NCBI RefSeq assembly: GCF_963676685.1
Contig: NC_092344.1
Location: 38,130,001 to 38,194,000, forward strand
Length of the DNA stretch: 64,000 bases
Direction: 5' to 3'
Source of the DNA: Mytilus edulis
Lineage: Eukaryota
The notes under the pieces are model-generated. The model searched no databases. It saw nothing but the letters and a program-made list of their open reading frames with translations, and had not been told where the DNA came from. Positions 12,601 through 58,987 of the stretch are shown one piece after another. The translations under genes were made by a program, and so were the position numbers. The stretch's first letter is position 1. Each line of letters starts with the position of its first letter.

Positions 12601-13110
12601 TTGTAAAAAATACCTTAAATTAATAGCCAAATTTATCTAAAGTCAACTTTGCCTGAGGGAGTTGAAACCTTAGTTTCTTAATTATTTATAAATGGACAAT
12701 TTAAGAAAGGTTTGTTAAATCATGTCAGTACCGAAGTACTGACTTGTGAGCTGATGATACCCCCGGGGTCTGATAATCCACCAGCAGAGGTATCGACCAA
12801 GTGATGTGAAAAATTGGAAACAACACGTTTAATAATTTCATTCGTCCGAAGCGCTTTTCTGGATTTGCCTTCATCAGGAACGCTCAAAGCCAAACATTTG
12901 AAATCCGAGGATTATAAGTACCGAAACCGTTGAAGAGCTATATGTAAAAAATACCTAAAACAATTTCATCTAAAGTCAACTTTGCCCGAGGGAGTTGAAA
13001 CCTTTTTTCTTAATAATTTCAAATTGATAAACGACAATTTTACTAAAGTTTGTTAAATCATTTCAGTACCGAAGTACTGACTACTGAGCTGATGATACCC
13101 TCGGGGACTA
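12601..13110 (-). mobile_element. About 1.5 tandem units (about 340 bp) of a hammerhead-carrying retrozyme / Penelope-like pLTR repeat
   Basis: 12601-12770 is repeated at 12941-13110; hammerhead at 12843-12883; inverted copy at about 30125-30430. Confidence 0.8.
12843..12883 (-). ncRNA. Type I minimal hammerhead ribozyme
   Basis: gcguuc-CUGAUGA-aggcaaaucca-GAAA-agcgcu-UC-ggacg; palindromic helix III. Confidence 0.75.
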
Positions 13111-14218
13111 AAATTTGGGAATTGCCCCATTTGTTGTGACGCAGAGCAGACGAAGCTGTTACCAAAACTGAATGAGAGCGACCGTGGATGAGGGGACGTT
13201 TAAGATTTGAGATAGTAATTAGTTAATATGCCCTGAGACCATTAATAATCTTAAAAGGGTTGAAATAGGGTCTTATTTAGTCTTGTGCAATATTTTTTTA
13301 CTTGCAAGTAAAAGTACATTGTATCTGAATTTAATTGAATGATGATATGTTTCAATTGACCCCTCCCTATAATAAGTTAATAAAATACTCAAACACAGTA
13401 TCAACGAGTCAATTATCTCTCATTTATTACAGATCCTCCAACTACCAACGCGACGTTGCCAGCCAGGATGTCTATGAGTCAGCAGCATTACTGGTTAGTG
13501 ACAGTCCACAAAGTCCGTCTCTGCTGACTGGAAATGACACAATCCTGACACTGGTTTTTTTTTTGACATGCTGTTGTTAACAAATTGTCCAGAACCGAGC
13601 ACCTGTTCTCCACATGATGCCCCTGAGATAAACAGTTGTTCCAGAACAAACAAATAGGACAGAGAAGCAGAAGTAAGTTAAAAGTAATAAAAAAAGATGT
13701 GGTATGATTGCCAATGAGACAACTCTCCACAAGAGACCAACATGAAACTTATTTTGTTTGGTGTTGGTTGTTTTTTTTGGAAAAAAGGGGGGGGGGGGGA
13801 GAGATTTCTGTCTCCTCACAGAAACATTTATCAGGTAGATCCATAATTATGCAGACTACGTTAGGCACACTATTTGTTGACGTTTCAAAGTTTATAAGCC
13901 TGATCAAATTCTACCTGAAGCAGATAAGAGGTGGATGGGCAAATCTTAAAAAAATATTTCGATCAATAAATTTATGTTTTAAGCATAAACATTTAGCAAT
14001 TCACTCGATCCATCGTATTTAAACATGAAACGGTAAAAAACATAGATTCGACAGATCCAGTAAAAAAGTATATGAAAAAATTGAGCCGTCTTTCTTTTTC
14101 CATCGATTTTCAAATTAGCTGAAAACCAGCCATGTTTATGGTCAAGGACGATTGTAGATGTCGAGAAAAAGGACACACACAATGCATTTTGTAAACATAA
14201 AATAGTGTTTTAAATTAC

Positions 14219-14750
14219 ATGCATGGTCACAAATGGCTTGTACATTGATGCTGTGGAACCCCTTCCTGTTAACAAATGCCGGTTCATCAATGCTAGGCCC
14301 AGTTATCCGTATGTGGGTCCCATCAATGCATCTAACCACATTTGGAAAACCAGCCTTTTAATAAAACCCAGCCCTTATTACGTTCTTCTGGTTATCTGGC
14401 CACGATATGAAGTCATCCTTCCTGGCAACTAATGATTTCGTCGCACGATCAATCAACCGAGACACAGTTGATTTGTCAAATTCCATTGTGTCCCCCAACA
14501 ACTTACAAGTGTGATCCATTGCCATAAAACCTCAAGGCAACCTGTTGCTCCATGAAAGGACTGTCTTCTTATTTGTCCCACGCTCCAGATCCCCTATCAT
14601 TAAATCCGACAAGTACTCAATGGTCTATCTGTCAAATCTAAACCTCTGCCTAAGCTCCTCATCAGAAAATTCCCTTTCAAGAGGTTCAAAACAGAGAAAA
14701 TGTCGCTCTCTTCTTACAATAGGTTGTTGAAACAAAACATTGACATCCAT
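14219..14750 (-). pseudogene. PIF/Harbinger transposase (DDE_Tnp_4 / HARBI1-like), first exon, decayed
   Basis: [40 protein letters not shown]...[18 protein letters not shown], then a GT donor. Terminus GGGTCTGTTGTTCAAC at 14927 with flanking CAG. Confidence 0.88.
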
Positions 14751-15620
14751 CTTAGATTGAGGTTAATCAACTGATTAAAATTTAATCAACCTCAACGAGG
14801 TCGATTAAATAGAACGACACTTTGACGACGCCTTAAACTTAACGACAAGTTGAACAACATGAGAATGGACTTATTAAATTAAACGCAGTGATTAGTAAAA
14901 TTTATCGACAAGTTGAACAACAGACCCCAGGTATGTTGGAATCGGCAGTCGGAGTTCAACGTTAACCGAGAAACGGTGTTAGCTTTGTTGAAGGACGAGA
15001 ATTACGCCGGTGAATTAGTTCTCATTATTGATGCTTTTAAACTTTTATAATCTTTAGAAATTAGGAAAGTATAAAAGAATTTGAATGACGATGAAGCAAA
15101 TAAATTGGGATTTTTTTGAAAAAAATATTTTGATGGCCTAGCTGAACGAAAAAAAAATTTATGTTTTGCACTGTAGCTGAAAAAAAAATTATGCTGTCAC
15201 CTGCTTGAAAAAAAAATGTGCACTGCTGAAAGTGAATTTGAGAATAGTGAAAATAACAACAGTTGAGACAGTGGAACAGCAGATTATACACATCTGTCCA
15301 GTCTAAAGATTAAGCTAAGATTTATATTTATACCTTATTACTTTTTGTTTTTTCCTGTAAGTGTTTGATCCAGAAATATTTAAAAGCATTACAAATCTCC
15401 CACATGTATGCTACTACATTAAGACATACTTAAAACTGCAACTATTATAAACATGATATGGTAATTTTATAACAGGGATAGATATGGTATCATATTAAAA
15501 CAGTCTTTTAAAGTAGCCCTGATTGTGTATGACACAGACTTGTATACCGGTAGTATTTTCCTTTGTATCATTCTGTATCATTCTTTATACCTCTTATTTT
15601 AATGGAATGTCAATTATCAG

Positions 15621-15854
15621 AGTTGGAAACAGTGGATGTTTATAATTTGGAGCTACTCACTCTTTGCCATTACATATGGCAATGGTGGCCACTTCAATTG
15701 CAGTATTAAAATTCAAGGACTGTGGTACCTGTATGACGGACTCGGAGAATATCATAATGTAGAAAGTTGGCTAAAAAAACAACAGAGACAACAGCCAATG
15801 CCAGGATGCAGACAGAGCCATGCACTTTACATTTTACATCAATTAAAAAATTAA
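15621..15854 (+). pseudogene. USP-like cysteine-protease His-box exon fragment
   Basis: YSLFAITYGNGGHFNCSIKIQGLWYLYDG resembles YxLxAxxxHxGGHY...WxxxDD; AG acceptor at 15619-15620. Confidence 0.45.
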
Positions 15855-16041
15855 AATGAATTGTATGTAAATTTTATGGTTTTGAGAAAAAAAAATGTAT
15901 TTCTGTTCCACATTATAGGAAAAAAAATTTTGCTTTCCTTCTCATAAGAAAAAAAATATTTTATCGGAGGAAGGTTCTGAAATTTTTTTTATGAACATAA
16001 TAAAAATCCCAGGCCCTCCCTCAGATAAGAAAATGGTTGCC

Positions 16042-56848: not shown

Positions 56849-57250
56849 TTGATTGATTGATGGTTGCTTAACGTCCAGTGGCAAATGTTTCATCCATATT
56901 CAGGACGAGAACAAGATCACAACAAATACAATAGTAGGTTGATATAAAAGAGGCCATTAGTGATGATGGTCGGGGAAATTCGGACAGCCACTGGAAAATG
57001 AGGGTATATTGGATAGGGACAGAAATTTTGCCTTGCAACAGGCCACCTACGGACCCCTCAAAGAGTTGTTGCAAGGGTTCTTAACGTGCAAAGAGCGTGA
57101 CACTCTCTTTACACCAGGCAGCGGATTTAACGTCCCCCTTCTGACCGGACGTGACTGCGAACTTTATACATCACACACAGCCAAACGGACGCCCCACTTC
57201 GGCAAGCGTTTTACTGCCGGTCGGGAGAAGACCAAGTGACCATATTTCTA
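56849..57250 (-). mobile_element. Nin/Deu-domain SINE
   Basis: Homologous to the 55420 and 58434 copies. Confidence 0.75.
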
Positions 57251-58000
57251 ATTTACAAAAAACATAATTTGTTTCACATTCTAAAGAGGATTTCTCATTT
57301 GCGCAATCTTTGCATATAAATGAGCAAGAGGCACTTGCAGTGGCTTTGGCAGTCAAAACGTTGGGATAAGTGCTGGCAAAATAAGCGTTTATATATTTTT
57401 TGTGATAATGCATCAACTGTTGCCTATATCAATAAGTGTACCCCAAGGAACAAACTTTGATGTCCTTTTTGCGTAAATTGTTTTGGCTACCTGCTTCTCA
57501 TATCTTTCATCTTGTCGCAATTCATTTGCTATTTCCAGATTGCAGACCAAAAAACATAATGCCCCCAGGTAGGGCATACAAAATTAATCAAATCAAGGAA
57601 TTGAGACAACATTTTAGCATCGTACAAAATAGAATAACCGACCACAATGAATATCGTAAACCACAAGATTTTTTTTTTTTTATCTTTTTTGTGCTACGTT
57701 TTATGTTTTATGTTTATGTTCATGTTTACTGGTTATAATTTAGTAAAGACTTTCAATTAGTGTTATAAAAGATTTGATAGGTTTAATAATAAAGTTACAA
57801 CATAACAAATAAAAGAATTTATATCGAAAAATTAAAGAGTCGAAACTTCCATTTATAGCATCTTCTGCTGATGTTAAGTGTTGTGAAGGATTTCTCGAGA
57901 TTAAAAACATCTGTATGCATCAACACAAGTACATAAAAGACATCGCAATTGAGTGTAGTTATAATGATGACTTTGTTAGCAATGAAGTGAAGCTAATATA

Positions 58001-58062
58001 ATTGATTCTATTTCTATACAATTGATTCTATTTCTATACAATTGATTCTATTTCTATACAAT
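58001..58062. repeat. 20-bp tandem repeat x3
   Basis: ATTGATTCTATTTCTATACA. Confidence 0.9.
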
Positions 58063-58433
58063 TTCTTTTTAATCGTTAAAGGTCTTTGAGGTTTTCTAAA
58101 ACGCATTCAGCACAAGATTTGCACGGGCTTCAGCTGGGTATACATAAAAGGGATTTTTTATTTTTATTCAAACGTCATTACGCAAAATGGAACCCAATGA
58201 GAAAAAAAGGAAACGTAAGTACCATTTAACATGTACATTTTAAAATGTAGTTCGACAGTGCATGTAGTTGAAGATACATGCAACTAGCCATATTAAGAAG
58301 CAGTTTCCTACTGGTCTACAGTGTGCAAGGAAATTGTTTGACACAGTGCATGTGAGTGGCAAGAGGGAAGTCAATTGGTCTGCTTTTTATTACACTCATA
58401 CGTAGTCCTACTACCTAGTATCAGTGGGAGGAC

Positions 58434-58987
58434 TGATTGATTGTTGGTTGCTCAACGTCCAGTGGCAAATATTTCATGCATATTCAGGACGAGAACAATT
58501 TAACAATATATACAGTAGGTAGGATTTGTCATAATAGAGGCCATTTGGGATGATAGTCGAGGAAATTCAGACTGCCACTGGAAATATAAAGGTAATATTG
58601 GTTAGGGACAGAAATTTAACCTTGCAACAGGCCACCTACGGACCCCTCTAAGAGTTGTTGCAAGTGGTCCTCATTGCTTTTCAACTTTGTATTTGTTTGG
58701 CTTTTTAACTGTTTTGATCTGAGCGTCACTGATGAGCGTTATGTAGACGAAACGCGCGTCTGGCGTATTAAATTATAATTCTGGTACCTTTGATAACTTA
58801 ACGTGCAAAGAGCGTGGCATTCTCTTTACACGAGGCATCGGATTTAACGTCCCCAATAAGACCGGACGTGACTGCGAACTTGATACATCCCGCTCAGCCA
58901 AACGGACGCCCCACTTCGCCAAGCGTTTTACTGCCGGTCGGAAGAAGACCAAGTGACCATATTTCTATTCCCCAGTCACCCTTTGGG
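58434..58987 (-). mobile_element. Nin/Deu-domain SINE interrupted by a hammerhead-bearing insertion (about 58665-58797)
   Basis: Comparison with the uninterrupted copy at 57061-57100. Confidence 0.8.
58723..58766 (+). ncRNA. Type I minimal hammerhead ribozyme (helix II partly mutated)
   Basis: gcguca-CUGAUGA-gcgu-uaugu-agac-GAAA-cgcgcg-UC-uggcgu. Confidence 0.75.

What the first reader, a model, noticed from the sequence alone, without database searches (positions are those of the whole stretch)
12843..58766. Six hammerhead motifs from at least three covarying families, all with palindromic helix III
Seen at 12843, 16068, 17774, 19643, 30381 and 58723. Helix I varies gcguca/uggcgu, gcauca/uggugc, gcguuc/ggacg. 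Helix II varies gucu/agac and gaca/uguc. Helix III is cgcgcg, ugcgca or agcgcu, always self-complementary. Established: minimal type I hammerheads of Penelope-like elements cleave as dimers via palindromic helix III. Inference: distinct palindromes would restrict pairing to the same family, a self-recognition code. Naiad-type RT fragments in the window are the likely mobilising partner.
Basis: partly seen in the sequence, partly recalled or inferred. Interest (0 to 1): 0.7.

Follow-up and report, generated by a model that had tools for sequence, protein, structure and literature searches.

The report
Mussel retrozymes carrying Naiad start signal
The six motifs are real but isolated, half-broken copies of a known kind of self-cutting RNA repeat; their palindromes are unlikely to be a family code, but the repeat shares a folded RNA element with the front end of Naiad jumping genes, lying just past the point where copies of both stop, which likely names the enzyme that spreads it.

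Summary
The six hammerhead motifs are real, but three are damaged. They are canonical-type, not minimal, type I hammerheads in solo or partial copies of four related 350-368-bp tandem-repeat families (A-D), which fit the published mussel non-LTR retrozymes. The genome holds 28,184 exact core matches, so six in 64 kb is ordinary (P about 0.16). RNA reads start exactly at the predicted family-A cut.

The self-recognition code is not supported. The palindromes differ at one base pair around an invariant GCGC, families A and D share one palindrome, and invertebrate motifs are reported to cleave as monomers. Homodimers are computed to be more stable than heterodimers, probably a by-product of drift.

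The Naiad guess is right, for a better reason. All four families carry a covarying 60-nt stem-loop that also opens three Naiad families here and at least 10 of 54 published Naiad consensus sequences. Genomic 3' ends of all seven families fall a median 5-6 nt before it, whatever their distance from the cut. It is likely the Naiad reverse-transcriptase start signal (untested). My searches did not find this in print; this scan noted it before on other DNA.

The parts
12605..13113 (-). Family B retrozyme, about 1.5 units in partial tandem; only one hammerhead, because the second unit breaks off before its own
   Evidence: 88-91% to family B consensus
12842..12883 (-). Type I hammerhead, family B, core intact, helix III AGCGCU, 2-bp helix II; predicted cut 12848|12847
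12747..12807 (-). Naiad-shared stem-loop element, the only complete copy in the window (somewhat decayed)
   Evidence: nhmmer E 2.8e-15; homology to Naiad 5' ends
13080..13114 (-). 3' half of the Naiad-shared element at the truncated 5' end of the B copy
   Evidence: nhmmer E 1.4e-08
16042..16330 (-). Family A solo copy, 5'-truncated; hammerhead 16068-16104 dead (11-nt deletion of the cleavage C and helix I 3' arm)
   Evidence: 95% to A; deletion seen against L002
17683..17844 (+). Family C solo copy, 5'-truncated; intact hammerhead 17774-17817, helix III UGCGCA; predicted cut 17811|17812
   Evidence: 97-100% to C; descriptor hit
19598..19877 (-). Family D-like solo copy; intact hammerhead 19643-19686, helix III CGCGCG; predicted cut 19649|19648
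   Evidence: Rfam RF00163 36.6 bits; 77-81% to D
30120..30440 (+). Family B solo copy starting inside the Naiad-shared element (30120-30163); hammerhead 30381-30422 probably dead (core CUGUUGA, UU at the cut); the 3' end is approximate
   Evidence: 87% to B
58668..58798 (+). Family A solo copy inserted into another repeat; hammerhead 58723-58766 with broken helix II
   Evidence: 90-95% to A; Rfam 24.9 bits, below cut-off; host repeat split
10995..11022 (-). 28-nt stub of the family A 3' tail, without hammerhead
   Evidence: 96% to A 14-41
32019..32361 (-). Broken Naiad RT fragment (closest to family N3)
   Evidence: tblastn 82% over 66 aa, E 1e-30; blastn 83%
30913..31225 (+). Broken Naiad RT C-terminus and 3' UTR fragment
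44419..44702 (-). Broken Naiad RT C-terminus and 3' UTR fragment
63647..64000 (-). Naiad N3 3' end (97%), stopping at the family's fixed boundary

Best explanation
The six motifs are isolated, truncated or partial copies of four related 350-368-bp hammerhead repeat families that fit the mussel non-LTR retrozymes, and these repeats are likely copied into the genome by Naiad reverse transcriptase, which would recognise a stem-loop they share with the Naiad 5' end.

Steps:
(1) Shown: each family forms head-to-tail arrays elsewhere in the genome.
(2) Shown for family A: arrays are transcribed in the hammerhead sense, and RNA 5' ends fall at the predicted cut.
(3) From the literature on the mussel retrozyme: monomers are ligated into circles.
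(4) Shown: 40-55 nt after the cut lies a 60-nt covarying stem-loop, homologous to the first bases of Naiad elements.
(5) Inferred: Naiad EN-RT binds it and starts cDNA 5-6 nt upstream of it, at an internal position; it copies back through the cut or ligation junction, giving truncated solos or more-than-unit arrays.
(6) Inferred: palindromic helix III allows optional dimer folding between neighbours in one transcript, and family differences are compensatory drift at one base pair, not a code.
No copy in this window has two hammerheads in tandem, so the window itself cannot release a monomer.
For: Arrays: periods of 355 (A), 349-351 (B), 350-351 (C) and 368 (D) bp. The published mussel retrozyme is 350-390 bp with two hammerhead families and abundant circles (PMC7229834 section 14).

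Cleavage: in 3 of 4 RNA runs (one study) molecules end at L004:1891, the first base after the cleavage C (104 of depth 383, 91 of 436, 181 of 742); strand bias fits the hammerhead sense if the libraries are of the usual stranded type.

Shared element: 86-87% over 63-71 nt to the 5' end of Naiad N3 (E 2e-17), 72-75% to N2, 82% over 34-45 nt to N1, each directly before the ORF. N1-N3 have an N-terminal GIY-YIG, CxC and DKA. 17 pairs in 6 sequences are 99% paired, 7 of them with changes on both sides; 0 of 500 shuffles reach this and slid controls give 34-56%. The core 10-mer lies in the first 70 nt of 10 named Naiad consensus sequences of 54 (6 bivalve, 3 hemichordate, 1 fish). The pattern has 10,103 exact matches in the genome, control 0.

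Register: copies ending near the element have median ends -6, -5, -6, -6 (A 59 of 89 alignments, B 25 of 34, C 40 of 68, D 17 of 25) and -6, -6, -6 (N1 19 of 29, N2 23 of 25, N3 49 of 53), while the same ends lie +42, +40, +34, +49 from the cut. No element hit at E<=10 in 40 loci (196 kb) of C-terminal-EN Penelope-like elements.

Precedent: internal RT initiation in a Poseidon element (PMC11167929, passages).
Against: There is no biochemical test of binding or initiation; the element's role rests on position and conservation. It could instead be a promoter, translation or stability element.

No pile of read ends was seen at the predicted family B or C cuts (low family-specific depth, diverged reads). 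The family A signal comes from one study, was absent from the fourth run, and could arise during library preparation. Circularity was not shown here, because tandem read-through gives the same junction reads.

The covariation test used 6 related sequences and a structure derived from them. End positions come from BLAST alignment ends in A/T-rich tails, partly on loci chosen by family queries; 10 of 89 family A alignments end more than 20 nt early (family D-like tails may account for some). Identity with the published mussel sequences could not be checked because the supplement is unreadable. Only 11 of the 40 control loci were fetched long enough to cover full elements.
Confidence: 0.72

Rival explanations
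1. One reading: the hammerheads work only as dimers, and distinct helix III palindromes were selected so that each family pairs only with itself.
For: In-register helix III duplexes: AA -13.3, BB -10.1, CC -10.5 against AB -1.7, AC -5.7, BC -2.1 kcal/mol. Whole double hammerhead: AA -29.5, CC -27.3, AC -13.4. A/D, B and C each use a different closing pair. 84 of 84 adjacent same-strand pairs are of one class. The loop is palindromic in all families, so the ability to dimerise looks conserved.
Against: The variable part is one base pair (at most four Watson-Crick states; three draws all differ by chance 3 times in 8, my arithmetic), and it must pair in the monomer fold too. A and D (83% identical) share palindrome and helix I. 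The A-to-C differences in helix I and III are all CpG transitions. The A palindrome is the Rfam consensus. Three autonomous families share AGCGCU. Same-class arrays follow from one-template copying and need no code; the pair count also merges D with A, so mixed A-D pairs were not tested. The review says most invertebrate type I motifs cleave efficiently as monomers, and one cloned mussel repeat cleaved at about 0.1 per min.
Confidence: 0.07
2. Naiad-derived, but the stem-loop is a promoter, translation or stability element, and the common 3' end is set by the T-rich tail just upstream of it.
For: The element sits 10-15 nt before the Naiad start codon. All seven families have a T-rich run at the boundary. 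Retrozymes are highly expressed with no known promoter.
Against: A non-coding circle has no use for a translation element. Compensatory pairing points to selection on RNA. The tails differ in sequence while the offset to the stem stays at 5-6 nt.
Confidence: 0.13
3. The retrozymes derive from, and are moved by, hammerhead-bearing C-terminal-EN Penelope-like elements (Neptune/Poseidon type), as proposed for frog retrozymes; the Naiad piece is a passenger.
For: Such elements are present with intact ORFs and their own minimal hammerheads with palindromic helix III. The pLTR origin is argued in bioRxiv 10.64898/2026.07.22.740005. Naiads lack canonical hammerheads (PMC8557442), so the ribozyme must have come from elsewhere.
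Against: In the C-terminal-EN loci, matches to A-C are retrozyme fragments, none coinciding with the elements' own hammerheads in the EN loci examined, and the element is absent. The retrozyme 3' ends track the Naiad element, not the cut. A passenger would not be the most conserved part of the unit.
Confidence: 0.08

Closest known systems
Mytilus galloprovincialis non-LTR retrozymes (Cervera & de la Pena 2020, PMC7229834; read passages and sections 14 and 17; supplement not readable)
   Same: 350-390-bp non-coding tandem repeats, low GC, one type I hammerhead per unit, several hammerhead families, high expression, self-cleavage.
   Different: Four families here against two there; 28,184 core matches against about 5,000 (different assembly and descriptor). 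No partner or recognition motif was named there; the 2020 review (PMC7761336 section 9) says no conserved motif points to the helper.
Naiad Penelope-like elements (Craig et al. 2021, PMC8557442; read passages, section 15, supplement searches and part 1)
   Same: Shared 5' stem-loop, same 3'-end register, 5' truncation and partial tandems. The N-terminus and 5' end of N1 match the printed parts of Naiad_Mgal.
   Different: Naiads are autonomous (EN-RT ORF of 1000-1053 aa here) and lack canonical hammerheads; the retrozymes are non-coding and carry one. The stem-loop is not described in the parts I read.
Minimal hammerheads of Penelope-like pLTRs (Cervera & de la Pena 2014, PMC4209133, parts 1-2 of 4; Lunse et al. 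2017 seen only as a reference title)
   Same: Type I topology, palindromic helix III, dimer model, many covarying families per genome.
   Different: Those have little or no helix III, longer helix II, and sit in pLTRs of RT-EN elements (seen here in other loci). The six motifs have a 2-bp helix III with tetraloop and sit in retrozyme units.
Poseidon element PAc (Frangieh et al. 2024, PMC11167929; passages)
   Same: Reverse transcription starts at an internal RNA site that matches the ends of genomic copies.
   Different: It is a C-terminal-EN element, starting in an AC-rich stem-loop inside the ORF; no Naiad has been tested in the passages I read.
Rfam RF00163 Hammerhead_1
   Same: Core and CGCGCG helix III are the family consensus.
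   Different: Only 1 of the 6 motifs passes the gathering score; families B and C were not reported at E<=1.

Membership tests
Type I hammerhead ribozyme | CUGANGA...GAAA...UH core with helices I-III, helix I open | tested here: met
   Met by 3 of 6 (12843, 17774, 19643) and by the family consensus sequences; 16068, 30381 and 58723 are damaged
Type I hammerhead ribozyme | Cleavage 3' of the H nucleotide | tested here: inconclusive
   Family A: RNA ends exactly at the site in 3 of 4 runs. Families B and C: no pile seen. D not tested. No assay of the window's own copies.
Minimal (PLE-type) hammerhead | Helix III/loop 3 absent or nearly so, enlarged helix II | tested here: not met
   2-bp helix III with tetraloop, 2-4-bp helix II; definition
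Minimal (PLE-type) hammerhead | Located in the pLTR of an RT-EN element | tested here: not met
   Located in 350-368-bp non-coding units. Exception: a decayed A-like segment lies in the 3' UTR of Naiad N2.
Non-LTR retrozyme | Head-to-tail repeats of 150-450 bp, one type I hammerhead each, GC below 45-50%, non-coding | tested here: met
   Arrays for A, B, C and D; the window copies are solos or partial
Non-LTR retrozyme | Expressed RNA in hammerhead polarity | tested here: met
   5,756-9,866 reads laid from 7.3-8.7 million records in three stranded runs, with clear strand bias; reads come from many genomic copies
Non-LTR retrozyme | Covalently circular monomer RNA | not testable with these tools
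   Junction reads cannot separate circles from tandem transcripts; shown for the published mussel element
M. galloprovincialis retrozyme families of PMC7229834 | Sequence identity with the published families | not testable with these tools
   Supplement too large to read
Naiad PLE (partner N1-N3) | N-terminal GIY-YIG, CxC, DKA, C-terminal RT, no canonical hammerhead | tested here: met
   Motif order; no intact hammerhead within the elements
Naiad-dependent non-autonomous element | Shared cis element and shared insertion-end register | tested here: met
Naiad-dependent non-autonomous element | Mobilised in trans by Naiad protein | not testable with these tools
   Needs an in vitro or cell assay

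The most novel reading that the evidence does not exclude
Mussel retrozymes are chimeras of a hammerhead and the 5' stem-loop of hammerhead-free Naiad retrotransposons. That undescribed 60-nt RNA element, conserved in Naiads from bivalves to acorn worms and a fish, is the binding and start signal that lets Naiad reverse transcriptase begin 5-6 nt upstream on an RNA with no free 3' end. It would be a portable signal for writing circular RNA into a genome.
Probability: 0.6. Interest if true: 0.72.

Novelty: new variant of a known kind. Interest (0 to 1): 0.5.

Why it matters
Which enzyme moves animal retrozymes, and how it starts on a circle, is stated as open in the retrozyme literature, and the current guess points to hammerhead-bearing Penelope-like elements. 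A shared, covarying element with a fixed offset to insertion ends names a different partner and gives a one-construct test. It would also be a defined cis signal for the Naiad clade, which dominates bivalve genomes and had no in vitro system in the paper that described it. The six motifs themselves are ordinary, and the palindrome code adds little.

Tried and rejected
- Antisense hammerhead: the reverse strand of the shared element reads like a minimal hammerhead core, but no read ends lie at its predicted cut; the piles at L004:1417 and 1390 fall in or beyond the UUCG hairpin. Rejected.
- The element as a known ribozyme or Rfam family: no match at E<=10 on L244:4300-4800 or at E<=1 in the window. 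A by-eye fit to HDV-like, twister and hairpin ribozymes (topologies recalled, not from a call) failed. No pile of ends inside the stem-loop itself.
- Pol III A/B boxes (consensus recalled): poor fit, and many T runs.
- A seventh candidate at 22853: core present, but no helix I or palindrome; dropped.
- Local clustering as a feature: not significant.
- Cleavage of families B and C in RNA reads: no signal.
- The run index listed no holder on record as RNA; raw-read runs under the same species label were laid instead.
- Lunse et al. 2017 is not held, so whether heterodimers were tested there is unchecked; a search for heterodimer tests found nothing relevant.
- The look-up of earlier scan findings by sequence was blank.
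Full report
Observation. All six motifs are in the sequence, three on each strand. A descriptor needing core, helix I and helix II passes 3 of 6 (12843, 17774, 19643); 200 shuffles of the window give a mean of 0.07 hits, none with a palindromic hexamer. Rfam Hammerhead_1 reports 19643 above its cut-off and 58723 below it, and the model consensus itself carries CGCGCG in helix III. Copy 16068 lacks 11 nt that include the cleavage C and the 3' arm of helix I, which are present in the near-identical stretch L002. 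Copy 30381 has a core substitution, and 58723 a broken helix II.

Context. The genome is 1.37 Gb, with 14 large contigs. DNA searches with three window copies return head-to-tail arrays with periods of about 355, 350 and 350 bp. A fourth family, D, of 368 bp was found through a pattern search and is 83% identical to A; A, B and C are 69-72% identical to each other. The core pattern with NGCGCN has 28,184 exact matches, reversed control 0. In 80 evenly placed 10-kb stretches there are 45 copies within 9 mismatches of a family motif, 22 with an intact core; six per 64 kb is therefore ordinary (P = 0.16). The descriptor's 21 hits in that sample were 19 family members and 2 chance-like hits, so it found no further family. 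Size, layout and expression fit the mussel non-LTR retrozymes of PMC7229834 (section 14); sequence identity could not be checked because the supplement is unreadable.

Activity. Raw reads of four RNA runs were laid on a family A array. In three stranded runs of one study the strand bias fits hammerhead-sense RNA, and molecules end at L004:1891, the first base after the cleavage C (104 of 383, 91 of 436, 181 of 742); the fourth run does not show it. Cutting may have occurred in the cell or during library preparation. The same test on a family C array and a family B dimer showed no pile at the predicted cuts, with low family-specific depth. Circularity was not shown here.

The palindrome code. 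Computed homodimers beat heterodimers: helix III duplexes are -10 to -13 against -2 to -6 kcal/mol, and whole double hammerheads AA -29.5, CC -27.3, AC -13.4. So if dimers form, like pairs with like. A selected code is another matter. The hexamers differ only at the pair that also closes the monomer stem, and GCGC is invariant. A and D share palindrome and helix I. The A-to-C changes in helices I and III are CpG transitions (seen in the sequences). Three distinct autonomous Penelope-like families share AGCGCU in their own minimal hammerheads. Neighbours within arrays are of one class in 84 of 84 pairs (A and D merged; loci partly chosen by family queries), which one-template copying explains. 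Palindromic helix III and many covarying families per genome are already described (PMC4209133, parts 1-2 of 4). The 2020 review states that most invertebrate type I motifs cleave efficiently as monomers (passages). I put a selected code at about 7%.

The partner. The most conserved part of the unit is not the hammerhead but a 60-nt GC-rich element, 40-55 nt after the cut. A GIY-YIG search gave mostly C-terminal-EN elements with their own hammerheads, and one Naiad whose 5' end matched this element. A protein search found further Naiad copies. Three families, N1-N3 (56-64% identical, with N-terminal GIY-YIG, CxC and DKA), all begin with the element, directly after the pLTR boundary and 10-15 nt before the start codon; 22 of 30 N1 loci have a hit. 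Three helices covary across four retrozyme and two Naiad families: 99% of cells paired, 7 of 17 pairs with changes on both sides, 0 of 500 shuffles, slid controls 34-56%. The sequences are related and the structure came from them, so this is support, not proof. The core 10-mer lies at the start of 10 named Naiad consensus sequences of the 54 in PMC8557442 (exact-string search, so a lower bound). The element has no Rfam match and no hit in 40 C-terminal-EN loci.

Register. In the unbiased sample plus the window, alignments end within -16 to +2 of the first stem in 22 of 41 (A), 3 of 7 (B), 6 of 7 (C), 15 of 15 (N1), 21 of 21 (N2) and 27 of 31 (N3); most of the other retrozyme alignments run through the element (tandems) or stop early. 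Over all fetched loci the median end is -5 or -6 in all seven families, while its distance from the cut is +34 to +49. So the end follows the stem-loop, not the ribozyme. Because copies extend past the cut, the template is a circle or an uncut multimer (inference). Internal initiation matching genomic ends is shown in vitro for a Poseidon element (PMC11167929, passages). The window's own RT fragments are Naiad-type but broken, so the enzyme would come from intact copies elsewhere.

Comparison and novelty. Retrozymes, palindromic helix III and the dimer model are known. PMC8557442 reports that Naiads lack canonical hammerheads. The 2026 preprint derives frog retrozymes from pLTRs (parts 1-3 of 5). 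The review says no motif points to the helper. Seven literature searches listed no paper linking retrozymes to a Naiad 5' element. The library lacks most subscription papers, and I could not see the PMC7229834 supplement, the preprint's supplements or Lunse 2017. Other agents of this scan reported the same link on other mussel DNA; I reached it before reading them, and their notes are not independent support.

Verdict. The motifs are real and ordinary, the code idea is weak, and the Naiad partner is well supported by sequence but untested at the bench. Interest 0.5; new variant of a known kind.

Noticed in passing
L250:4356-4795 and L247-L249, L251, L252 (Naiad N2 3' UTR): Naiad N2 copies, including ones with intact ORFs, carry a partly duplicated, decayed family-A-like segment (73-75%) with a dead hammerhead in the same orientation: capture of a retrozyme, or common ancestry.
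   Followed up: partly
L182-L200, L175, L179, L185, L171, L172, L178, L197: C-terminal-EN Penelope-like families carry minimal hammerheads after the ORF, one with a variant UUGAAAA core; palindromes AGCGCU and ACAUGU recur across families.
   Followed up: partly
L203:3218-6750, L206:2323-8360: Two C-terminal-EN families have a separate upstream ORF of about 420 aa overlapping the RT-EN ORF.
   Followed up: no
L201:3589-3617: A 29-nt family A tail stub is inserted in the 3' UTR of one Naiad N1 copy.
   Followed up: partly
window 19958-24619: Young repeat (95-99% internal duplications) with zinc-knuckle, coiled-coil ORFs on the minus strand (PF00098 at 23408-24151).
   Followed up: no
window 4393-6129 and 6674-7157: A transposase-like ORF with a BED finger (PF02892, just under cut-off) and a broken integrase core (PF00665).
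   Followed up: no
window 53782-54778 and 53720-53760: 168/336-bp tandem repeat; beside it a short stretch resembling the 3' half of the Naiad-shared element, not reported by nhmmer at E<=1.
   Followed up: partly
window 47732-47888: Long inverted repeat (MITE-like), giving only sub-threshold miRNA hits in Rfam.
   Followed up: no
window 41244-41532, 55424-55908, 56848-57250, 58431-58993: A further dispersed repeat family with several copies; one is split by the 58723 retrozyme.
   Followed up: no
L294:5883: A pile of RNA read ends at the foot of the UUCG hairpin that follows the shared element (3 of 4 runs); probably an RT stop, unexplained.
   Followed up: no
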